From an uncultured Bacilli bacterium (lineage in GTDB: Bacteria; Bacillota_I; Bacilli_A; RF39; UBA660), in NCBI GenBank assembly GCA_944358875.1, contig CALVRZ010000002.1, positions 1 through 58,432 of the forward strand: a stretch of DNA of 58,432 bases, read 5' to 3'. This document shows, one piece after another, positions 40,109-49,105 of the stretch. The notes under the pieces are model-generated. The model had not been told where the DNA came from and ran no database searches. It saw nothing but the letters and a program-made list of their open reading frames with translations. The translations under genes and the position numbers were made by a program. The first letter of the stretch is position 1. Each line of letters begins with the position of its first letter.

Positions 40109-40745
40109 TAAGCTAGTCTTGTGACTAGTTTTAATTTTATAATTTGCTAGGTACTAGAGGATTATATCCATTGTCTTTAGTCACATAATTCCTTTAGGAT
40201 TTCCATTTTTGCAAAAACAGGAGAAATGTGGTAAACTTAATACGAAGGTGGTATCATGCAAAAAGGAGCCCACACACAATATGATTTACAATTTCATGTT
40301 GTATGGATAACAAAATATAGAAAGAAAATATTAGTAGGAAAAATTGCTTCTATGTTGAAAGTGCTATTGATGCAAGGATGTTCGGCAAAAGGAATAACAA
40401 TAATTAAAGGTAATATTCAGCCAGAATATGTACATTTATTGATAAGTATTCCACCATCCTTGTCAATAGCACAAGTTATGCAGTATTTAAAAGGAAGAAG
40501 TTCAAAAAAATTGCAAGAAGATTTTTCGTGGTTGAAGAAGCAATTTTGGGGTCAACATATGTGGGCGACTGGGTATTTTTGTAGAAGTGTAGGAAAAGTA
40601 ACACAAGACACAATAATAGAGTACATAGAGAGTCAAAAAGATGATATAGATGATATATTTGTAAAAGATGGTATGCTTTAGCATATAGCGACTTTTAGTC
40701 GCCCATCAAACCCTGTACTTTTAGTGCAGGGTGGTTGATATATTT
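40109..40745 (+). mobile_element. IS200-type insertion sequence (IS200/IS605 family, TnpA only)
   Basis: The left-end hairpin is CTAGTC-TTGT-GACTAG (40113-28). Right-end hairpins lie at 40688-40704 and 40710-40733. The element encloses the Y1 transposase gene. Confidence 0.75.
40256..40681 (+). CDS. tnpA: IS200/IS605 family Y1 (HUH) transposase TnpA
   Basis: It has FHVVWITKYRK, the HUH-like YVHLL and the catalytic-Tyr region WATGYF. Confidence 0.9.
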   Translation: MQKGAHTQYDLQFHVVWITKYRKKILVGKIASMLKVLLMQGCSAKGITIIKGNIQPEYVHLLISIPPSLSIAQVMQYLKGRSSKKLQEDFSWLKKQFWGQHMWATGYFCRSVGKVTQDTIIEYIESQKDDIDDIFVKDGML

Positions 40746-40764: not shown

Positions 40765-42336
40765 ATGAATAATAAAAAAGAAAAAGAAAGAGAAGAATTA
40801 CATAAAACAATTTGGAAAATAGCTAATGAATTAAGAGGTTCTGTTGATGGTTGGGATTTTAAACAATATGTATTGGGTTTATTGTTTTATAGATTTATAT
40901 CTGAAAATATAGAGAACTATGTTAATGAAAATCAAAGACAAGCGGGATATAAAGATTTTGAATATAGAAATTTATCTGATGAAGATGCTTTAATGGGTAA
41001 AGATCAAATTTTATCTGAAAAGGGATTATTTATATTACCGAGTGAATTATTTTATAATGTTAGAAAAAGTGCTAAAAATAATGATAACTTAAATGTTGTG
41101 ATTGGAAATATATTTGATAATATAGAGTCTTCTGCTATAGGAACAACATCAGAAGATGATGTTAAAGGGTTATTTGATGATTTTGATGTTAAAGGAAATA
41201 AACTAGGTAATACAGTAGAAGAAAGAAATGAAAAACTAGTAAAAATGTTAGATGCAATTGGTGATTTAAATTTAGGAAATTATCAAGATAATGCTATAGA
41301 TACTTTTGGTGATACTTATGAATATTTGATGACTATGTATGCGTCTAATGCTGGTAAATCTGGAGGAGAATTTTTTACTCCTCAAGAAGTAGGAGAATTA
41401 CTTGCAAGAATTGTTATAGGAAATAAAAAGGAAGTAAATAAAGTATATGACCCAGCATGTGGTTCTGGGGGGTTACTTTTAAAATTTGCTAAAATATTAG
41501 GTAAAGAAAATGTAAGGCAAGGTTTCTTTGGACAAGAAATAAATTTAACTACTTACAACCTAGCTAGAATAAATATGTTTTTACATAATATAAATTATAA
41601 TCATTTTAATATTGCAAGAGGGGATACTTTAATTCATCCGAAGCATTGGGGTGATGAACCTTTTGATGCGATTGTATCTAATCCTCCTTATTCAATTAAA
41701 TGGGCTGGTAAATCTAATCCAATTTTAATTAATGATGAAAGATATGCTCCAGCTGGAGTATTGGCTCCAGAATCAAAAGCTGATTTAGCTTTTACTATGC
41801 ATATGCTATCATGGCTTAGTCCAACTGGTACAGCTGCTATAGTTGAATTTCCAGGAGTACTTTATAGAGGCGGAGCTGAACAAAAAATTAGAAAATATAT
41901 GGTAGATAATAACTTTGTAGATACAGTAATACAATTACCATCAGATTTATTCTTTGGTACTTCTATTGCAACATGTATATTAGTACTAAAGAAAAATAAA
42001 ATAGATAATAATATTTTATTTGTTGATGCATCAGAAGAATTTGTTAGAAACACAAATAAAAATAAATTATCTGATGAAAATATTAATAATATAATTACTT
42101 TATTAAAAAATAGAAAATCAGTAGATAATCAAGCTTATCTAGCTCCTTATGAAGAAATAAAAGAAAATGATTATAACATATCAGTAAACTCATACTTAAA
42201 GAAAATAACAGAAGAAGAACAAATAGATATTAAAAAATTAAATAAACAAATAAAAGAAATAGTTGAAAAAGAAAATATTATTCGTATTGAATTAGATAAA
42301 ATTATTGCAGAATTGGAGTCTGATTCAAATGAGTAA
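40765..42336 (+). CDS. hsdM: Type I restriction-modification system methyltransferase subunit
   Basis: It has an HsdM N-terminal domain, motif I DPACGSGG and motif IV NPPYSIKW. Confidence 0.92.
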   Translation: MNNKKEKEREELHKTIWKIANELRGSVDGWDFKQYVLGLLFYRFISENIENYVNENQRQAGYKDFEYRNLSDEDALMGKDQILSEKGLFILPSELFYNVRKSAKNNDNLNVVIGNIFDNIESSAIGTTSEDDVKGLFDDFDVKGNKLGNTVEERNEKLVKMLDAIGDLNLGNYQDNAIDTFGDTYEYLMTMYASNAGKSGGEFFTPQEVGELLARIVIGNKKEVNKVYDPACGSGGLLLKFAKILGKENVRQGFFGQEINLTTYNLARINMFLHNINYNHFNIARGDTLIHPKHWGDEPFDAIVSNPPYSIKWAGKSNPILINDERYAPAGVLAPESKADLAFTMHMLSWLSPTGTAAIVEFPGVLYRGGAEQKIRKYMVDNNFVDTVIQLPSDLFFGTSIATCILVLKKNKIDNNILFVDASEEFVRNTNKNKLSDENINNIITLLKNRKSVDNQAYLAPYEEIKENDYNISVNSYLKKITEEEQIDIKKLNKQIKEIVEKENIIRIELDKIIAELESDSNE

Positions 42337-43501
42337 AATAGAACAGTTAATAAAAGAAAAATGTCCTAATGGTGTTGAGTATAAAAAATTGTCTTCTGTA
42401 ATAGAGGTTAATAGAGGTAGTAGATTAACTAAGAGTCAATTATTAAATAATGGAATATATGAAGTATATCACGGAAGCAAAGACGTTCCTTTAGGAAAAT
42501 ATAATAAATTTAATACCGTTGGTGATACAGTAATAATTGTAAATACTGGTGGAATTGGCGGCGTAAAGTACTTAAAAGATAATTTTTGGTGTTCAGATGG
42601 CTGCTTTAACTTGGGACATAATGATAGAATTAATAATAAGTTCTTATATTATTATTTATCTCAATATGAAGATTATTTTGTGAGTCAAAAACGAATTGGC
42701 GGTGTTCCTACCATTGATAAAAATGTTGTACAAAAAATTAAAATTCCACTTCCACCAATAGAAGTACAAGAAGAAATTGTTAATATATTAGATAAATTTA
42801 GTGAACTAGAGGCAGAACTAGAGGCAGAACTAGAGGCAAGAAAAAGACAATATAATTTTTTTAGAAACAAAATATTAAATCCAAACAATACTACAAAGGC
42901 TTTAAAGTTATCTGAAATTGCAAGTATCAAAGCAAGAATAGGGTGGCAAGGACTTACAAAAAGTGAATATTTAAATAGTGGTGATTATTATTTAATTACT
43001 GGAACTGATTTTAAAAATGGTAGAGTTGATTTCAGCAATTGTCATTATATAAACGAAGATAGATATAATCAAGATACTAATATTCAAATTAAAAATAATG
43101 ATGTTCTTGTAACTAAAGATGGTACATTAGGAAAAGTAGCATACGTTGAGAAAATGGATAAACCAGCAACTTTAAATAGTGGTGTCTTTGTTATTAGAAG
43201 TAATAAAAATATAGTAACTAATAAATTTTTATATCATTATTTTCAATCAAGTCATTTAATGAATTTTGCCAAATCTAGGATAACAGGAGGAACAATTAAA
43301 CATTTAAATCAAAGTATTATGGTAGATGTTCCAGTTCCAATATATTCAATAGAAAGACAAGAATATATAGTAAAAATATTAGATAAATTTAGTGAATTAG
43401 AAGCAGAACTAGAGGCAGAACTAGAAGCTAGAAAAAAGCAATATGAATATTATAGAAATAAACTACTTAATTTTGATAATAAAAAGAGGGAAAAATGTTA
43501 A
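42329..43501 (+). CDS. hsdS: Type I R-M specificity subunit with two target-recognition domains
   Basis: The conserved region ILDKFSELEAELEAELEARK(R/K)QY occurs twice. The start overlaps the hsdM stop. Confidence 0.9.
   Translation: MSKIEQLIKEKCPNGVEYKKLSSVIEVNRGSRLTKSQLLNNGIYEVYHGSKDVPLGKYNKFNTVGDTVIIVNTGGIGGVKYLKDNFWCSDGCFNLGHNDRINNKFLYYYLSQYEDYFVSQKRIGGVPTIDKNVVQKIKIPLPPIEVQEEIVNILDKFSELEAELEAELEARKRQYNFFRNKILNPNNTTKALKLSEIASIKARIGWQGLTKSEYLNSGDYYLITGTDFKNGRVDFSNCHYINEDRYNQDTNIQIKNNDVLVTKDGTLGKVAYVEKMDKPATLNSGVFVIRSNKNIVTNKFLYHYFQSSHLMNFAKSRITGGTIKHLNQSIMVDVPVPIYSIERQEYIVKILDKFSELEAELEAELEARKKQYEYYRNKLLNFDNKKREKC
42803..42838 (+). repeat. Three perfect tandem copies of the 12-bp unit GAACTAGAGGCA (ELEA repeats) in the central conserved region of hsdS
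   Basis: This was read directly from the sequence. A degenerate triple is at 43394-43429. Confidence 0.9.
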
Positions 43502-44001
43502 AAAAAATTCATTTGATAGTAAAATATTTATTCCAGATATTTCTATATTTATTCGAGACATTGGGAATAGCCGTTTTATGTACTATATTTATAACTGATA
43601 TTAATCCATTTACAAATTGTTTTGAATTTATTGAGAGTGTAACTGTATTTTATGCATTATATCAAATTATTATTTATAATATATTACAACAGTTTAACGA
43701 TATAAAGAAGGATGAATATTTGGCTTTATCTACATTATATAAGTTAACTAGACTTTATATAATAACTAAAAACGATATAATAAAACAAGATATATTATCT
43801 AAATTAGAATATCAATTAGATTCAGCAACCTTTAATGATAACAATGTAAGAAGAGAATATTTAAATATTAAAGAAATAATTAATTCTCCTAAAAAAAATA
43901 ATTTAGAAATTATAGATTATAAAATTATATATTTTGATCATTTAAGTGAAGAAGCAATTTTGGGATGGAAATATTCTATATTATTGAGATTACTTAAATA
44001 A
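43495..44001 (+). CDS. Uncharacterised membrane protein (two N-terminal TM helices plus a ~100-aa cytoplasmic helical domain) nested in the R-M operon
   Basis: The ATG overlaps the hsdS stop (AAATGTTAA) and an AGAGGGA RBS precedes it. The TM segments are LFQIFLYLFETLGIAVLCTIFI and VTVFYALYQIIIYNIL. Confidence 0.65.
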   Translation: MLKKIHLIVKYLFQIFLYLFETLGIAVLCTIFITDINPFTNCFEFIESVTVFYALYQIIIYNILQQFNDIKKDEYLALSTLYKLTRLYIITKNDIIKQDILSKLEYQLDSATFNDNNVRREYLNIKEIINSPKKNNLEIIDYKIIYFDHLSEEAILGWKYSILLRLLK

Positions 44002-44013
44002 GAAGGAGTAAAA

Positions 44014-44463
44014 ATGAATAAATTATTAGTTCAAAGTACGAAAAAGGAATTAGATGATTTAATTAATTACATCAGTACGTGCAATTTTGATAAATTTACT
44101 TTATATATTAAAGTTGCTAATACATTTAGTCATTTAGGAGCTTTATTTGATAATTTTATTAACGAGCCAAAAAGTGAAAATAATATGCTCAAAAATGCCT
44201 GTGTTGCTTTTAATAATGCTTTTAAACATAGCAAAGAAATGGGAAAAGAATATTCTGATTTAAATATGATAGAATATGGTACAGCATTTAATTGTATATT
44301 AGATGCACCTTTTGGCGATGTTGTGTTTTTTCGTAATGCTGAATATTTAAAAAAATTAAAAGATGGTAGAAATTATAAATGGTATTCAAAAGTTTTTGAA
44401 GGAAAACGAATGGATATAGTATTAGAAGATATAAGAAAGATGGTTGATGAAGAATATGACTAA
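44014..44463 (+). CDS. Uncharacterised soluble protein (149 aa) nested in the R-M operon
   Basis: It has a perfect AAGGAG RBS. Its 3' end overlaps the hsdR start. No motif was recognised. Confidence 0.65.
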   Translation: MNKLLVQSTKKELDDLINYISTCNFDKFTLYIKVANTFSHLGALFDNFINEPKSENNMLKNACVAFNNAFKHSKEMGKEYSDLNMIEYGTAFNCILDAPFGDVVFFRNAEYLKKLKDGRNYKWYSKVFEGKRMDIVLEDIRKMVDEEYD

Positions 44464-47400
44464 TTTAAGTATGATAAGTGAAAATGATAACTCTACGGTA
44501 TTAACAGAATATAAGGGATTAAATAAAACAGAAACTTTTTATCAAAGTGAGGATGCTTTAGAAAAAGAATTAATTAATACTTTAGTAAATCAAGGATATG
44601 AATATGTAACTATTAATAGTGAAAAAGAATTTATTTTAAATTTAAGAAAACAGTTAGAAAAATTAAATCGCTATCATTTTACTGATGGAGAATGGGATGC
44701 GTTTTTTATTAATGTTATTGCTAATAAAAATAATCATATTATTGAAAAAACAAGATTAATTCAAGAAGATTATATTCAATCTATCACTTTGGATAATGGT
44801 AGTTTGAAAAATATTTATTTAATTGATAAAAATAATATTCATAATAATAGTGTTCAAGTTATTAATCAATATGTAAATAATGATGGAACTTATGATAATA
44901 GATATGATGTTACTATTCTAATTAATGGACTGCCTTTAGTTCATTGTGAATTAAAAAGAAGGGGTATTGATTTAAGAGAAGCTTTTAATCAGATAGAAAG
45001 ATATCAAAGAGATTCTTTTTGGGCTAGCAGTGGACTATATGAATTTGTTCAAATATTTATAATTAGTAATGGTACTTTGACTAAGTATTATTCTAATACT
45101 ACAAGAGAGTTTCATATTAATAATAAAACTAAAAGAAAATCTAATTCATTTGAATTTACTTCGTTTTGGGCAGATCAAAAAAATAACAGTATAACTGATT
45201 TAATAGATTTTGCGAAAACATTTTTAACTAAACATACTTTGTTAAATATTTTAACAAAATACTGTGTATTTACTTCTGAAGAAGATTTATTAGTTATGAG
45301 GCCTTATCAAATAGTTGCTACGGAAAAGATATTAAATAAAATAAATGTTTCTTATAATAATAAACTATATGGAACTATTAAATCAGGTGGATATATTTGG
45401 CATACTACAGGTTCTGGTAAAACTTTAACTTCTTTTAAGACTTCTATTTTAGCTAGTAAATTAGAATTTATTGATAAAGTATTATTTGTTGTTGATAGAA
45501 AAGATTTAGATTATCAAACAATGAAAGAATATGATAGATTTAAAGAAGGATGTGCAAATAGTAATTCAAGTACTAAAGTTTTAGAAAGTCAATTAAATGA
45601 TACTAATGCTAAGATAATTATTACAACTATTCAAAAACTTTCTGGTTTTATTAAGAAAAATACTGGAACAGAAGTTTTTAATAAAAATGTTGTCTTTATA
45701 TTTGATGAATGTCATAGATCACAATTCGGTGAGATGCATAAAGCAATTATAAAAAAATTTAAAAAGTATTATATTTTTGGATTTACAGGAACACCAATAT
45801 TTCCAGAAAATGCTAGAACGGTAAAAGGTATATCTGAAACAACAGAACAAATATTTGGTGATAGATTACATACTTATACAATTGTTAATGCTATTGCTGA
45901 TAAAAATGTTTTACCATTTAGATATGAATATGTAGGTAGAGTAGATGTTAAACATGATGTAAAAGATGAAAAAGTATATTCTATTGATGAAGATAAGACT
46001 TTTGATAATAAAATTAGAATATCTTTAATTACAGATTATATAATTAAACATTTTAGTACTAAAACAAAAACTAATGAGTCCTATGTTTTCTCTACACTGG
46101 ATAATGTAGTTGAAGTGGCTAAAAAAAGAGATACTAAAGAAAATAAAACAAAGAAAAATATTAATGGATTTAATTCAATATTTGCTGTTGGAAATATAAA
46201 AATGGCTAAAGAGTATTATGAAGAATTTAAAGAGCAACAATGTCAATTAAAAACTAATTTAAAAGTAGCTTTAATATATTCTTATGGAGTTAATGGTGAA
46301 GATGGGATAATTGATGAAAATTCTGAAACAACTGAAGCATTAAGTACTGATGATAGAAGATTCTTAGATGCTGCTATTAAAGATTATAATAAAATGTTTG
46401 GTACTTCTTATGATACGTCATCTGATAGATTTCAAAATTATTATAGAGATGTTTCTCTAAGAATGAAAAATAGAGAAATTGATATATTAATTGTTGTTAA
46501 TATGTTTTTGACTGGTTTTGATGCTAAAACATTAAATACTTTATGGGTTGATAAAAATTTAAAATGGCATGGTTTAATACAGGCTTTTTCTAGAACAAAT
46601 AGAATACTAAATAGTGTTAAAACTTATGGAAATATTGTTTCATTTAGAAATCTAGAAAGTAGATTAAATGAGTCTTTAGCAAAATTTGGTGATGAAAATG
46701 CAAGAGGTATAGTTTTATTAAAACCATATGAAGATTATTTCTATGGTTATGAAGATGAAAATGGTAAAAACTTTGAAGGATATGAATCATTAATACAAAA
46801 AATGAAAGATTTATTTATTCCTGGAGAATTACCACAGAGTGAAAGTAAACAAAAGGAGTATATAAAATTATATGGTCAAATATTAAGAGTTACAAATATT
46901 TTATCTTCTTTTGACCAATTTAAAAATGAAGAATTACTTAGCGAAAGAGATAAACAAGATTATCAGGGTATATATATTTCTCTTTATAATGAATTTAGAA
47001 ATAAAGCTAAGCATGAGAAAAAAGATATTACTGATGATATTGTTTTTGAAATGGAATTAATTCGAGCAATAGAAGTAAATATTGATTATATTTTAGGACT
47101 TGTAAAAAAATATCATGAAAGTAATATGCAAGATAAAGAAGTACTCGTTACAATTAATAAAACTATTATGGCAAGTCCAGATTTAAGAAATAAAAAAGAT
47201 TTAATATTAGCATTTATTAATTCATTAGATGTCAATTCTGATGTTTATTCTGATTTTGAGAAATTTATGAACAGTAAAAAGAAAGAAGAACTAGATAAAA
47301 TAATTAAAGAAGAGAATTTAAATAGGGATAAAACATATAATTTGGTTAGAAAATCCTTTGAACAAGGTAAAGTTGATACAAACGGCACAGAAATATCTGA

Positions 47401-47524
47401 TATTTTACCACCTATGTCAATGTTTTCTCAAGATAATAGTAGACAAAAAAAGAAAAATATTGTTATTGATAAATTATTAGAGTTTTTTGATAAATTTTTT
47501 AATATATCAAATAATAAGTTTTAG
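44456..47524 (+). CDS. hsdR: Type I R-M restriction subunit (helicase/endonuclease)
   Basis: It has the N-terminal nuclease region D...ELKR, helicase motif I HTTGSGKT and motif II DECHRSQ. Alternative in-frame starts are at 44444 and 44447. Confidence 0.92.
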   Translation: MTNLSMISENDNSTVLTEYKGLNKTETFYQSEDALEKELINTLVNQGYEYVTINSEKEFILNLRKQLEKLNRYHFTDGEWDAFFINVIANKNNHIIEKTRLIQEDYIQSITLDNGSLKNIYLIDKNNIHNNSVQVINQYVNNDGTYDNRYDVTILINGLPLVHCELKRRGIDLREAFNQIERYQRDSFWASSGLYEFVQIFIISNGTLTKYYSNTTREFHINNKTKRKSNSFEFTSFWADQKNNSITDLIDFAKTFLTKHTLLNILTKYCVFTSEEDLLVMRPYQIVATEKILNKINVSYNNKLYGTIKSGGYIWHTTGSGKTLTSFKTSILASKLEFIDKVLFVVDRKDLDYQTMKEYDRFKEGCANSNSSTKVLESQLNDTNAKIIITTIQKLSGFIKKNTGTEVFNKNVVFIFDECHRSQFGEMHKAIIKKFKKYYIFGFTGTPIFPENARTVKGISETTEQIFGDRLHTYTIVNAIADKNVLPFRYEYVGRVDVKHDVKDEKVYSIDEDKTFDNKIRISLITDYIIKHFSTKTKTNESYVFSTLDNVVEVAKKRDTKENKTKKNINGFNSIFAVGNIKMAKEYYEEFKEQQCQLKTNLKVALIYSYGVNGEDGIIDENSETTEALSTDDRRFLDAAIKDYNKMFGTSYDTSSDRFQNYYRDVSLRMKNREIDILIVVNMFLTGFDAKTLNTLWVDKNLKWHGLIQAFSRTNRILNSVKTYGNIVSFRNLESRLNESLAKFGDENARGIVLLKPYEDYFYGYEDENGKNFEGYESLIQKMKDLFIPGELPQSESKQKEYIKLYGQILRVTNILSSFDQFKNEELLSERDKQDYQGIYISLYNEFRNKAKHEKKDITDDIVFEMELIRAIEVNIDYILGLVKKYHESNMQDKEVLVTINKTIMASPDLRNKKDLILAFINSLDVNSDVYSDFEKFMNSKKKEELDKIIKEENLNRDKTYNLVRKSFEQGKVDTNGTEISDILPPMSMFSQDNSRQKKKNIVIDKLLEFFDKFFNISNNKF

Positions 47525-47577: not shown

Positions 47578-48093
47578 TCAGATTGTTGCTGAATCTTTTT
47601 CTAATTCATCAATAAGATTATTAATATGTATTTCTGGTATTCGTGTAGTAGGGTCTTGTTTTAACAAATTACAAGCTTTTATTACTTTTCTAATGGAAAT
47701 AATGTTATTTTCTTTCATTAATTTGATTATTTTTAGTGTTCTAAATACTTCAATGCCATTATTTTCAGCATAATTTTTTAATCGATTATCTCCAGTAGCA
47801 AGAATACAATTATGATCTCTTGCTATTACATAATTAAGTAAATCATATGTTGATAATTTTTTTTCGGCAATAGATAAATTACTTACTTCTGTTAATTGGG
47901 CTGCTGTTGCAGATATTACTTTAAATTTATTAATTAATTTAACATTGCCAGTTTTTGAATTTATTTCATCATTTTTAATCACATCACTTATATAAACATT
48001 ATCTATATTAATAAATTCTTCTAATATATTAGCATTATTTAAGTCTGTTATTATATTGGTATCAGTAATTATTATCTTCGTTGTTATATTCAT
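47578..48093 (-). CDS. PIN-like domain protein (putative toxin/nuclease partner of the ImmA/IrrE-HTH protein)
   Basis: It has N-terminal IIITDTNIITDL and C-terminal LATGDNRLKNYAENNGIEVFRTL, matching the acidic PIN signature pattern. It overlaps the 3' end of the upstream gene. Confidence 0.65.
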   Translation of the reverse strand: MNITTKIIITDTNIITDLNNANILEEFINIDNVYISDVIKNDEINSKTGNVKLINKFKVISATAAQLTEVSNLSIAEKKLSTYDLLNYVIARDHNCILATGDNRLKNYAENNGIEVFRTLKIIKLMKENNIISIRKVIKACNLLKQDPTTRIPEIHINNLIDELEKDSATI

Positions 48094-49105
48094 CTGTCGT
48101 AATTCCCAATAGTTCACAAGCTTTATTTAACGAAATAATATCATCCGCTTCTAACTTGTATACAATTCTTTTAAATTGATATGATTTTTCAGGTTGAATA
48201 GGTTTGGGATCATTTTTTCCTATTCGCTGACTTAAAAATATGCTTAATTTTTTATATAAGTATTCTGATATAATATTTAAATCTTTCAATCTATATACAA
48301 TTGCTGCATAACTAACTTTAAATTCATTTTTAAAAGCAGTTAATTCAAAGAAATTTATATTTTTCCTTGATATTCCAAATTCATTTATTATTGCTTCTTT
48401 TGGCATTAATAGTGCACTTGCAAATCTATTACATATTTTTTCTTGATCTAATTCTTCATTATTAATATTTAGTAGTAAATGTCCTAATTCGTGAGCAATA
48501 GTAAATCTTTGTCTAGCACCATCTTTTATACCATCTAGTAAGACAATAATAGGAATATTATTTACTATTTCACTTAGACCATCAAAGTCATTAAAACGAT
48601 TATCTGGATTTTTAATTTGAATTATAATAATACCTAGGTTTTCAAGGGTATTAATTAAATCTGATATAGGTTGTTTACTTGATATTTTTATATAATTTCT
48701 AAATTCATTAGCGGATTTTTCAGCATCATCAAAACTATTACATGAATATTTTTTTAGTTTAATATTATTGTTATCTATATTGTTCATTTGTATAATTTCT
48801 AAATATTTAGCTACTTCATCTTGTATTATTTCTTCTAGTAGTTTTAAATTTTGACCAGTTAATCTTTTTTTCTTCCTAAATGAAGTAAATTTCATTTTAG
48901 GTGCATTATAGACTTTTAATAAATCAACAGATTTAACATTATATGCATTAGCAAAATCAATTAGTTTTTTTGAATCTGGTATTATTTCTCCTTTTTCATA
49001 TTTGGAAATGGCCGTTGCAGTCATATTAAGGAGTTTACCTGCATCTTTAAGTGATAGATTTTTTAATAATCTAATTCTTTTTAAATTTTTTCCTATTCCA
49101 TTCAT
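48062..49105 (-). CDS. XRE-type HTH fused to an ImmA/IrrE (COG2856) zinc metallopeptidase domain
   Basis: The N-terminal HTH is LKRIRLLKNLSLKDAGKLLNMTATAISKYEKG. The metalloprotease motif is HELGHLLL. Confidence 0.85.
   Translation of the reverse strand: MNGIGKNLKRIRLLKNLSLKDAGKLLNMTATAISKYEKGEIIPDSKKLIDFANAYNVKSVDLLKVYNAPKMKFTSFRKKKRLTGQNLKLLEEIIQDEVAKYLEIIQMNNIDNNNIKLKKYSCNSFDDAEKSANEFRNYIKISSKQPISDLINTLENLGIIIIQIKNPDNRFNDFDGLSEIVNNIPIIVLLDGIKDGARQRFTIAHELGHLLLNINNEELDQEKICNRFASALLMPKEAIINEFGISRKNINFFELTAFKNEFKVSYAAIVYRLKDLNIISEYLYKKLSIFLSQRIGKNDPKPIQPEKSYQFKRIVYKLEADDIISLNKACELLGITTDEYNNEDNNY

What the first reader, a model, noticed from the sequence alone, without database searches (positions are those of the whole stretch)
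43495..44463. Two uncharacterised genes translationally coupled inside the type I R-M operon (between hsdS and hsdR)
The operon reads hsdM-hsdS-orfX-orfY-hsdR with overlapping or adjacent stops and starts at each junction: the orfX ATG overlaps the hsdS stop, a 12-nt gap containing AAGGAG precedes orfY, and the orfY 3' end overlaps the hsdR start.

OrfX (168 aa) has two N-terminal TM helices and a helical cytoplasmic tail. OrfY (149 aa) is soluble. I recognise no family motif in either.

The hsdS-hsdR gap is the classic position where R-M-guarded suicide modules sit; PrrC, the anticodon nuclease in the EcoprrI locus, is the established example. A membrane effector plus a small sensor/adaptor wired to a type I R-M would be a plausible undescribed back-up (abortive-infection-type) defence.
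Basis: partly seen in the sequence, partly recalled or inferred. Interest (0 to 1): 0.72.

Follow-up and report, generated by a model that had tools for sequence, protein, structure and literature searches.

The report
Swappable orphan genes inside restriction operon
Two real but completely uncharacterised small genes sit inside a type I restriction-modification operon; they are two independent cassettes rather than a working pair, and in sister operons the first gene's place is taken by the known suicide nuclease PrrC.

Summary
hsdM, hsdS, orfX, orfY and hsdR form one tightly packed operon: 8-nt overlap, 7-nt overlap, a 12-nt gap containing AAGGAG, then an 8-nt overlap.

Both ORFs are real genes under purifying selection (dN/dS 0.13-0.30). 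Neither has a significant match in Pfam, NCBIfam, PHROGs, PADLOC, PDB sequences or Foldseek, despite confident AlphaFold2 models.

OrfX and OrfY occur together in only 3 loci; about 14 further type I loci have OrfX without OrfY, and about 23 have OrfY with neither OrfX nor PrrC.

OrfY was found only in this slot. In 31 of 31 loci it overlaps the start of a type IC hsdR.

OrfX is mostly found outside restriction operons: in a three-gene cassette in abundant gut Bacilli, on a mobilisable element, or alone.

Among operons whose HsdR is at least 91% identical to the window's, the slot holds OrfX+OrfY, PrrC+OrfY, or OrfX alone. The PrrC analogy is therefore strengthened by position.

Best reading: the hsdS-hsdR junction is a cargo hotspot. 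OrfX is probably an autonomous membrane-acting abortive-infection module, and OrfY probably an accessory factor tied to HsdR. This is a new variant of a known kind, and function is untested.

The parts
40765..42336 (+). hsdM, the type I methyltransferase subunit
   Evidence: Pfam N6_Mtase 6.7e-114 and HsdM_N 9.2e-19.
42329..43501 (+). hsdS, the specificity subunit. The likely ATG is at 42329; the mechanical ORF starts at TTG 42305. It carries 12-bp x3 tandem repeats in both conserved regions.
   Evidence: Pfam Methylase_S 6e-50 with two stretches. ATGAGTAA overlaps the hsdM stop. Tandem repeats lie at 42803-42838 and 43394-43433.
43495..44001 (+). orfX, 168 aa. An orphan all-helical protein with one clear and one probable N-terminal membrane helix, followed by a roughly 100-aa helical domain. 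It has an invariant LQQ(L/F)NDIKKDEYLA motif after helix 2.
   Evidence: ORF and junctions. Family alignment A1. The profile search found 187 clusters. AF2 pLDDT 81.5. Hydropathy. No family or fold match. dN/dS 0.13-0.30.
44002..44013 (+). The 12-nt orfX-orfY spacer, which carries the Shine-Dalgarno sequence AAGGAG
   Evidence: Read directly from the sequence.
44014..44463 (+). orfY, 149 aa. An orphan soluble alpha/beta protein. Family-wide invariant residues are Y19, Y31, K33, N68, F70, K71, H72, G89, A98, P99, G101, N108, R132 and D134. Its 3' end contains the hsdR ribosome-binding site and start codon.
   Evidence: for the ORF and alignments. AF2 pLDDT 86.8, pTM 0.84. Only 18 hits among 1.84 billion representative proteins. 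No fold match. Junction alignment.
44456..47524 (+). hsdR, the type IC restriction subunit. The likely ATG is at 44456; the mechanical ORF starts at TTG 44444.
   Evidence: Pfam HSDR_N, SWI2_SNF2/ResIII, T1R_D3-like and EcoR124_C, all at E 1e-40 or better. tblastn alignments of homologues begin at this ATG.

Best explanation
The hsdS-hsdR junction of this type IC restriction-modification lineage, found in uncultured gut Bacilli, is a cargo slot that carries interchangeable accessory cassettes. The window holds two independent ones.

**Shown**
- OrfX and OrfY are real, selected, orphan proteins that occur separately as well as together.
- OrfY is found only immediately upstream of, and overlapping, a type IC hsdR.
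- OrfX also occurs in a second, unrelated type I operon, in a three-gene cassette, on a mobilisable element, and alone.
- In operons with nearly identical HsdR, the OrfX position is filled by the anticodon nuclease PrrC.

**Inferred**
- OrfX is an autonomous, membrane-inserted, second-line (abortive-infection-type) module. Like PrrC, it has been recruited into the restriction operon. On infection it would oligomerise through its polar second helix and conserved juxtamembrane motif, and compromise the membrane.
- OrfY is an accessory factor that works on or through HsdR. Its synthesis is translationally locked to HsdR. It would either stay silent while the enzyme is intact and fire when a phage disables it (the PrrC logic), or tune restriction activity.
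- Neither protein needs the other.
For: **Operon packing.**

**Real genes.** dN/dS is 0.13-0.30 in unsaturated pairs. For the window versus L009, dS of X and Y (0.87 and 0.46) is similar to that of hsdM and hsdR (0.60 and 0.62). Their dN/dS is 0.23-0.26 against 0.05-0.06, so they are co-inherited but evolve 4-5 times faster at the protein level.

**Independence of X and Y.** X-only loci are L001-4, L012, L013 and L062-66, the last group with X 71% and HsdR 92% identical to the window. Y-only loci are L005-8, L020-31 and L050-56.

**Exclusivity of Y.** In 31 of 31 loci, spanning sequence groups from 42% to 100% identity, hsdR lies directly downstream with a 4-8 nt overlap. The hsdR ribosome-binding site GGTGA sits inside conserved C-terminal codons of orfY. 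The orfY profile found only 18 proteins among 1.84 billion representatives.

**PrrC in the X position.** L059 and L060 read hsdS, a 365-aa protein, orfY, hsdR, with every junction overlapping. The 365-aa protein matches PADLOC PrrC at 6e-87. It is 31% identical over its full length to a plasmid CDS annotated 'anticodon nuclease'. It also carries R-x3-E followed 33 residues later by H, which matches the published PrrC triad R320/E324/H356 (PMC1484252).

**Defence neighbourhood.** AbiD, a GmrSD/HEC-06-like gene, and an HTH-ImmA gene beside a PIN gene flank the operon. Related loci carry Abi_2, HEPN_Apea or GmrSD next to the operon.

**Literature.**
- PrrC is almost exclusively embedded in type I R-M, and more than 50% of embedded genes are of unknown function (10.1101/2024.01.29.577857).
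- The hsdS-hsdR site holds DarTG2 and has been proposed as a recombination hotspot for defence systems (PMC12255303).
- TgvAB is embedded in a Vibrio cholerae type I system (PMC11411939).

**OrfX features.** Clear first TM segment; N-terminus +3 and loop -3; conserved E21; a Tyr/Gln/Asn-rich second helix.

**Not phage or plasmid genes.** No homologue was found in IMG/VR, GenBank phages or PLSDB plasmids.
Against: - There is no functional evidence of any kind, and no homology to any known effector, sensor or regulator.
- Some intact OrfX homologues under purifying selection sit among metabolic genes with no defence neighbours (L011, L016, L042-44). An unrelated membrane function is therefore possible.
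- OrfX's second membrane helix falls below the usual hydropathy threshold in most family members. The protein could be single-pass, with its C-terminal domain outside the cell.
- OrfY coexists with PrrC. That is as easy to explain if OrfY is a regulator or accessory of HsdR as if it is a second suicide module.
- HsdR that is 92% identical exists without OrfY (L062-66), so OrfY is not needed by the enzyme.
- Locus counts come from de-duplicated look-ups and pattern scans, not from an unbiased census.
Confidence: 0.5

Rival explanations
1. One reading: OrfX (membrane effector) and OrfY (sensor or adaptor) form one two-component abortive-infection system wired to the type I enzyme.
For: They are adjacent, separated by a 12-nt gap with a Shine-Dalgarno sequence, in the window, L009 and L019. 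OrfY is also adjacent to PrrC in L058-61, which an 'adaptor for whatever effector is upstream' could explain.
Against: - About 23 loci have OrfY with no upstream effector, and about 14 further type I loci have OrfX without OrfY. One of these has X 71% and HsdR 92% identical to the window.
- The most abundant OrfX relatives lie outside any hsd operon.
- E. coli PrrC needs no such adaptor (PMC1484252).
Confidence: 0.07
2. OrfY is not a defence effector. It controls restriction: a small HsdR-binding protein, translated just before HsdR, that delays or tunes assembly or activity of the restriction complex (restriction alleviation, or safe establishment in a new host). OrfX would then be unrelated cargo.
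For: - The Y-hsdR overlap is strictly conserved, and the hsdR ribosome-binding site lies inside orfY.
- OrfY identity tracks HsdR identity across most groups. As Y/R percent identity to the window: 81/94, 74/93, 65/86, 62/82, 59/69, 55/58.
- OrfY is never found apart from hsdR.
- It coexists with either cargo, or with none.
Against: - HsdR that is 92% identical functions in operons lacking OrfY (L062-66).
- OrfY has no DNA-binding or known regulator domain.
- Group L028-31 breaks the co-divergence pattern, with Y at 43% but HsdR at 82%.
- OrfY's dN/dS is 4-5 times that of HsdR, which is more typical of arms-race or accessory genes.
Confidence: 0.2
3. One or both genes are non-defence hitchhikers. 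For example, OrfX could be a small housekeeping or stress membrane protein that has landed in a permissive intergenic site, and the embedding would carry no functional meaning.
For: OrfX homologues are intact and selected among metabolic genes (L011, L016, L042-44). Neither protein has a recognisable defence domain.
Against: - OrfX is embedded in at least two unrelated type I lineages (HsdR only 26% identical in L048-49).
- It sits on a mobilisable element beside HEPN, Fic and PDC-M11B-like genes.
- It occupies the PrrC position.
- OrfY's 31 of 31 linkage to hsdR is hard to explain without a functional tie.
- Published work shows that most genes embedded in type I R-M are not housekeeping genes (10.1101/2024.01.29.577857).
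Confidence: 0.15
4. They are anti-restriction or anti-defence genes of a mobile element that have inserted into the operon.
For: Both are small, fast-evolving orphan proteins next to a restriction enzyme. An IS200-like tnpA lies just upstream of hsdM.
Against: - No homologue was found in IMG/VR viral contigs, GenBank phages or PLSDB plasmids.
- Both genes are co-oriented and translationally coupled with the hsd genes, and co-inherited with them at similar dS.
- There is no match to any anti-restriction family in Pfam.
Confidence: 0.03

Closest known systems
PrrC anticodon nuclease in the EcoprrI (type Ic) locus
   Same: It is embedded between hsdS and hsdR of a type IC system. In sister operons with 91-93% identical HsdR, a genuine PrrC occupies exactly the position orfX has here and sits directly upstream of an orfY homologue. 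OrfY resembles PrrC in being found essentially only inside type I operons.
   Different: Neither OrfX nor OrfY has the ABC-ATPase N-domain or the R-x3-E...H nuclease triad, and neither matches the PADLOC PrrC model. OrfX is a membrane protein that also lives outside R-M operons. OrfY is a 149-aa protein of unknown fold.
Defence systems embedded in type I R-M found by 'guilt-by-embedding': DarTG2 between hsdS and hsdR in EPEC, TgvAB in V. cholerae VPI-2, and the PADLOC PDC candidates
   Same: The architecture is the same: co-oriented genes nested in a type I operon, at a site already proposed as a recombination hotspot for defence cargo (PMC12255303, PMC11411939, 10.1101/2024.01.29.577857). As with many embedded systems, OrfX also occurs un-embedded.
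   Different: There is no sequence or HMM relationship to DarTG, GmrSD/TgvAB or any HEC or PDC model in PADLOC-DB 2.0.0. The two genes here are two separate single-gene cassettes, not one multi-gene system, and no phenotype is known.
Small membrane abortive-infection or effector proteins, such as SLATT-type 2-TM effectors and the lactococcal membrane Abi proteins
   Same: OrfX is small, has an N-terminal membrane hairpin with polar or charged residues in the helices, sits in defence-island and mobile-element contexts, and is found as an autonomous single gene.
   Different: No Pfam SLATT or Abi model matched at E <= 10 in any of the 25 family members. The second helix is only weakly hydrophobic. 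The resemblance is one of architecture only.

Membership tests
Type IC (EcoR124I-like) restriction-modification operon (the host operon) | HsdM, HsdS and HsdR are all present, HsdR carries the EcoR124_C C-terminal domain, and the gene order is hsdM-hsdS-hsdR | tested here: met
   Pfam N6_Mtase, Methylase_S (two stretches), HSDR_N, SWI2_SNF2, T1R_D3-like and EcoR124_C at 1e-59. 12-bp x3 repeats lie in both hsdS conserved regions.
PrrC / anticodon nuclease | ABC-ATPase N-domain (Walker A and B) plus a C-terminal Arg-x3-Glu...His triad, and a match to the PrrC profile | tested here: not met
   OrfX and OrfY gave 0 PADLOC hits at E <= 10. Neither has a P-loop or the triad in its alignment. hhalign of OrfY against the L059 PrrC gave probability 0.3%. 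By contrast the L059 365-aa protein matches PrrC at 6e-87.
PrrC / anticodon nuclease | Genetic embedding in a type Ic hsd locus between hsdS and hsdR | tested here: met
   This feature is positional and does not establish family membership.
PrrC-type R-M-guarded effector (mechanism) | Physical association with the R-M enzyme, and activation when the enzyme is inhibited | not testable with these tools
   This needs pull-downs and phage or anti-restriction challenge.
Obligate two-gene (effector plus sensor, or toxin-antitoxin-like) module | The two genes are conserved together across genomes | tested here: not met
   X+Y occurs in 3 loci. X occurs without Y in about 14 further type I loci and about 19 non-hsd loci. 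Y occurs without X in 28 loci: about 23 with nothing upstream, 5 with PrrC.
PADLOC HEC / PDC embedded defence candidates | A match to a PADLOC-DB 2.0.0 model | tested here: not met
   0 hits for OrfX and OrfY. The database does contain HEC and PDC models, as neighbouring genes matched them.
HEPN RNases (considered for OrfY) | A four-helix HEPN fold with a conserved R-x4-6-H motif | tested here: not met
   There is no R-x4-6-H among the invariant residues (the conserved motif is N-x-F-K-H). Foldseek rows for HEPN toxins (7ae6_B, 6m6u_G, 9bj6_D) have E > 2 and TM 0.18-0.32, which is noise level. Pfam HEPN_Apea matched 1 of 16 members at E 0.56.
SLATT / 2-TM pore effectors (considered for OrfX) | A match to a SLATT profile, and two bona fide TM helices | tested here: inconclusive
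   No Pfam SLATT hit in any of 25 members. TM1 is clear, but TM2 is sub-threshold by hydropathy in 24 of 25. Profile-profile comparison against Pfam was not available.
Anti-restriction proteins (ArdA, Ocr, KlcA and similar) or R-M controller/regulator proteins (C-protein, RptR) | A match to the family profile or an HTH domain, and occurrence on phages or plasmids | tested here: not met
   No Pfam or NCBIfam hit. No homologue in IMG/VR, GenBank phages or PLSDB.

The most novel reading that the evidence does not exclude
OrfY is a previously unknown dedicated partner of type IC HsdR. It would turn the restriction enzyme into a docking or sensing platform for swappable suicide effectors (PrrC in some strains, the membrane protein OrfX in others). 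It could also act as a minimal 'guard' effector of novel fold on its own when the enzyme is attacked by phage anti-restriction proteins.
Probability: 0.12. Interest if true: 0.8.

Novelty: new variant of a known kind. Interest (0 to 1): 0.5.

Why it matters
Nesting of second-line defences inside type I R-M operons is established: PrrC, DarTG2, TgvAB and 'guilt-by-embedding'. The general arrangement is therefore not new.

What is new is a natural swap experiment. Operons with at least 91% identical HsdR carry OrfX+OrfY, PrrC+OrfY or OrfX alone at the same junction. This nominates two structurally orphan families as candidates.

- OrfY is the more unusual. Like PrrC, it appears only inside type I operons, fused translationally to hsdR. 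If it acts through HsdR it would be a second example, after PrrC, of an R-M-dependent accessory, and with an unknown fold.
- OrfX is one of the more widespread orphan genes of uncultured human-gut Bacilli. One allele is indexed in 3,293 blocks of the contig collection. Any function assigned to it would annotate many metagenomic genes.

Both are small and easy to test.

Tried and rejected
**Family and structure searches**
- Pfam, PADLOC, NCBIfam and PHROGs on both proteins, plus Pfam on every alignment member, gave nothing significant. OrfY's DUF2225 hit (E 0.056) and the DUF4293 hit for 14 OrfX members (E >= 0.09) are below threshold and were treated as compositional.
- PDB sequence search with both profiles found nothing.
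- Foldseek of both AF2 models against PDB, and of OrfY against BFVD, gave best E-values of 0.37, 0.78 and 1.2. The HEPN rows for OrfY were rejected as noise.

**Profile-profile comparisons**
- hhalign of OrfY against HsdR, PrrC, the L005 265-aa ORF and OrfX gave probabilities below 1%.
- A tempting local resemblance between OrfY 'KNACVAFNNAFKH..EYSDL' and the PrrC 'KKEIIKLINLYSHGN..EYSDL' region is not significant (E 0.21). OrfY also lacks the R-x3-E part of the triad. A PrrC C-domain origin for OrfY was therefore rejected.

**Other searches**
- Viral contigs, GenBank phages and PLSDB plasmids held no homologues.
- The promoter and terminator scan was uninformative in this AT-rich DNA: 67 promoter-like sites against 67.9 expected, and no internal terminator.
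- The 185-aa and 351-aa partners of OrfX in the three-gene cassette have no Pfam, PADLOC or PDB match. A HEPN-like 'RNNLH' motif in the 351-aa protein is only a lead.

**A flawed value**
- One dN/dS value (window versus L012 hsdM) came from a frame error in my coordinates and was ignored.
Full report
**1. Observation**

The window carries a co-directional five-gene block:
- hsdM, 40765-42336.
- hsdS, 42329-43501. The ATG lies in ATGAGTAA, an 8-nt overlap with the hsdM stop.
- orfX, 43495-44001, 168 aa. ATGTTAA gives a 7-nt overlap with the hsdS stop.
- A 12-nt spacer, gAAGGAGtaaaa.
- orfY, 44014-44463, 149 aa.
- hsdR, 44456-47524. ATGACTAA gives an 8-nt overlap with the orfY stop.

Pfam confirms a complete type IC-like enzyme: N6_Mtase 6.7e-114, Methylase_S with two stretches, and HSDR_N, SWI2_SNF2, T1R_D3-like and EcoR124_C.

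One caveat concerns the 'two TM helices' of OrfX. The first hydrophobic segment is unambiguous in all 25 relatives (Kyte-Doolittle 19-residue mean 1.67-2.38). The second reaches only 0.9-1.8 and is lined with conserved Tyr, Gln and Asn. AF2 models it as the start of a long helix, residues 42-91, paired with helix 2-34.

**2. Are they real genes, and of what family?**

Both are under purifying selection. In pairs where dS is not saturated, dN/dS is 0.13-0.30 for orfX and 0.13-0.28 for orfY.

For the window versus L009, dS of orfX and orfY (0.87 and 0.46) is comparable to that of hsdM and hsdR (0.60 and 0.62). Their dN/dS is 0.23-0.26 against 0.05-0.06. They have therefore been co-inherited with the operon but evolve 4-5 times faster at the protein level.

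Neither has a significant hit in any of the following:
- Pfam, PADLOC-DB 2.0.0, NCBIfam or PHROGs.
- Pfam scans of every alignment member.
- PDB sequences searched with family profiles.

The AF2 models are confident: OrfX pLDDT 81.5; OrfY pLDDT 86.8 with pTM 0.84. Foldseek nevertheless finds nothing below E 0.37 in PDB or BFVD.

The OrfY family is tiny. A profile search of 1.84 billion representative proteins returned 18 hits, and the only long ones are repeat-protein artefacts. The OrfX family is larger, at 187 clusters at 90% identity, all unnamed or 'hypothetical'.

All relatives come from gut metagenomes or MAGs labelled Bacilli, 'Tenericutes', Anaeroplasmataceae or Candidatus Coprosoma. 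None is in IMG/VR, GenBank phages or PLSDB plasmids.

**3. Gene neighbourhoods: the decisive evidence**

I mapped the window's HsdM, HsdS, OrfX, OrfY and HsdR onto 66 fetched loci by tblastn, and used the gene calls returned by the contig look-ups.

*OrfY.* It occurs in 31 loci, in sequence groups from 42% to 100% identity to the window. Every one has a type IC hsdR immediately downstream with a 4-8 nt overlap. The hsdR Shine-Dalgarno sequence (GGTGA) lies inside the conserved C-terminal V-G-(D/E)-E codons of orfY. What lies upstream of OrfY varies:
- hsdS directly (L005-8, L020-31, L050-53);
- an HsdM fusion protein (L055-56);
- OrfX (window, L009, L019);
- a 365-aa PrrC (L059 and L060, with partial copies in L058, L061 and L018).

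*The PrrC assignment* rests on several lines:
- PADLOC PrrC at 6e-87 over nearly the whole model.
- Pfam AAA_13.
- 31% full-length identity to an IncC-plasmid CDS annotated 'anticodon nuclease', which is itself embedded in a type I operon.
- An FRILLEK...SH motif that matches the published R320-E324-H356 triad (PMC1484252).

*OrfX in type I operons.* It is embedded without OrfY in L001-4, L012, L013 and L062-66. In L062-66, OrfX is 71% and HsdR 92% identical to the window. It is also embedded in an unrelated type I lineage, where HsdR is only 26% identical (L048-49).

*OrfX elsewhere.* The commonest alleles are not in hsd operons:
- P0142 is indexed in 3,293 blocks of the contig collection, and P0125 is also common. 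Each is the third gene of a conserved cassette of 185 aa, 351 aa and OrfX. The cassette is 94-96% identical at two different genomic places.
- Other copies sit on an integrase/Mob_Pre element beside RhuM-Fic, TPR-HEPN and a PDC-M11B-like gene.
- Others stand alone among metabolic genes (L011, L016, L042-44).

*The swap.* Within a single HsdR clade, at least 91% identical to the window, the hsdS-hsdR slot contains OrfX+OrfY (window, L009, L019), PrrC+OrfY (L058-61) or OrfX alone (L062-66). The conserved HsdS C-terminus (EYYRNKLLSF...) runs straight into whichever cargo is present.

**4. Interpretation**

The data support something different: a cargo hotspot at the hsdS-hsdR junction, as already proposed for DarTG2 in EPEC (PMC12255303), holding two independent cassettes.

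OrfX behaves like most embedded defence genes. It is autonomous, occurs both embedded and un-embedded, and is associated with mobile elements and defence islands. Here it is positionally interchangeable with PrrC, the textbook R-M-linked abortive-infection effector. Several features fit a membrane-acting effector, but this step is inference only:
- an N-in topology, with the N-terminus at +3 and the loop at -3;
- a conserved Glu in helix 1;
- a polar face on helix 2;
- an invariant juxtamembrane motif.

OrfY behaves like PrrC in one respect only: it is found solely inside type I operons (compare 10.1101/2024.01.29.577857, Fig. 6C text). It is also locked translationally to hsdR, and it largely co-diverges with HsdR. 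As Y/R percent identity to the window, the groups run 81/94, 74/93, 65/86, 62/82, 59/69 and 55/58, with one outlier group at 43/82. That argues for a function exerted on or through HsdR.

The data do not say whether OrfY is a guard-type latent effector or a modulator of restriction. HsdR that is 92% identical exists without it, so it is accessory and not a core subunit. Family-wide invariant polar residues (Y19, Y31, K33, N68, K71, H72, N108, R132, D134) suggest a defined active or binding site.

**5. Comparison with known systems, and novelty**

The arrangement belongs to a known kind: defence or accessory genes nested in type I R-M. Examples are PrrC (PMC1484252), TgvAB (PMC11411939), DarTG2 (PMC12255303) and guilt-by-embedding (10.1101/2024.01.29.577857).

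The two proteins are not members of any of those families. They give no PADLOC, HEC, PDC or PrrC hit, they have no HEPN motif, and no SLATT, HTH or anti-restriction profile matches them. I rate this a new variant of a known kind: two orphan families, one of them RM-exclusive, nominated by a natural PrrC/OrfX swap. There is no functional evidence.

**6. Limits**

- Locus counts derive from pattern-seeded scans and de-duplicated look-ups, so they are not frequencies.
- Remote homology was tested with HMMER-level tools and Foldseek against PDB and BFVD only. No AlphaFold DB search and no HHpred against Pfam was available.
- Topology rests on hydropathy and an AF2 monomer model.
- All functional statements are inference.

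**Verdict**

Interest is 0.5.

Noticed in passing
window:42803-42838 and 43394-43433: hsdS carries perfect 12-bp x3 tandem repeats (GAACTAGAGGCA, encoding (LEAE)n) in its central conserved region. A 3.2-copy, 85% version lies in the C-terminal conserved region. The two halves form a 164-nt direct repeat at 76% identity. From general knowledge, this resembles the EcoR124I/II spacer-length repeats, so slippage could change the enzyme's specificity.
   Followed up: partly
window:40256-40681: A 141-aa ORF resembling an IS200/IS605 TnpA (a Y1 transposase with a YVHLLIS motif) sits between the GmrSD-like gene and hsdM. Hairpin-like sequences at 40690-40735 lie just upstream of hsdM. The assignment rests on the motif only; Pfam was not run on it.
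   Followed up: no
window:37103-40108 and 47578-49105: The operon sits in a defence island. Upstream are AbiD/Abi_2 (PADLOC AbiD 1.4e-18) and a GmrSD-type gene (PADLOC HEC-06/Orf5, about 1e-38). Downstream, on the opposite strand, are a PIN-domain gene and an overlapping HTH+ImmA/IrrE gene (PADLOC 'RmrA' 2.4e-42, also capP/capH-like).
   Followed up: partly
L032:4375-6507; L038:4390-6522; L010:6942-8507: The most abundant OrfX relatives are the third gene of a conserved three-gene cassette of 185 aa, 351 aa and OrfX. The cassette is 94-96% identical at two different genomic locations. In L010 the 351-aa gene is broken while OrfX remains intact. Both partner proteins are orphans with no Pfam, PADLOC or PDB match. 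The 351-aa protein has an 'NRKCRNNLHYSD' stretch that looks HEPN-like, but this was not tested.
   Followed up: partly
L005:6004-6801 (also L006-8, L021-27): The type I lineage that has OrfY only (HsdR about 58% identical to the window) carries yet another orphan 265-aa ORF, between hsdM and hsdS. It has no Pfam or PADLOC match.
   Followed up: partly
L045:515-10288: An OrfX homologue lies on a small integrative or mobilisable element that carries an integrase, Mob_Pre and a serine recombinase. Neighbouring genes include RhuM-Fic, TPR-HEPN_LA2681, a GNAT gene, and a downstream ASCH-like 184-aa gene that matches the PADLOC candidate PDC-M11B (6.6e-11).
   Followed up: partly
L055:378-2495 and L056:366-2483: In one OrfY-containing lineage, the gene upstream of orfY is a 705-aa HsdM-like protein that also matches part of HsdS. 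This suggests an HsdM-HsdS fusion, or a half-HsdS, in place of a separate hsdS gene.
   Followed up: no
L015:3848-4330 and L017:8001-8250: These are degenerate OrfX copies. One is a disrupted copy just upstream of a third, unrelated type I hsdM. The other is a copy truncated to 90 aa. OrfX genes therefore also decay in some genomes.
   Followed up: no
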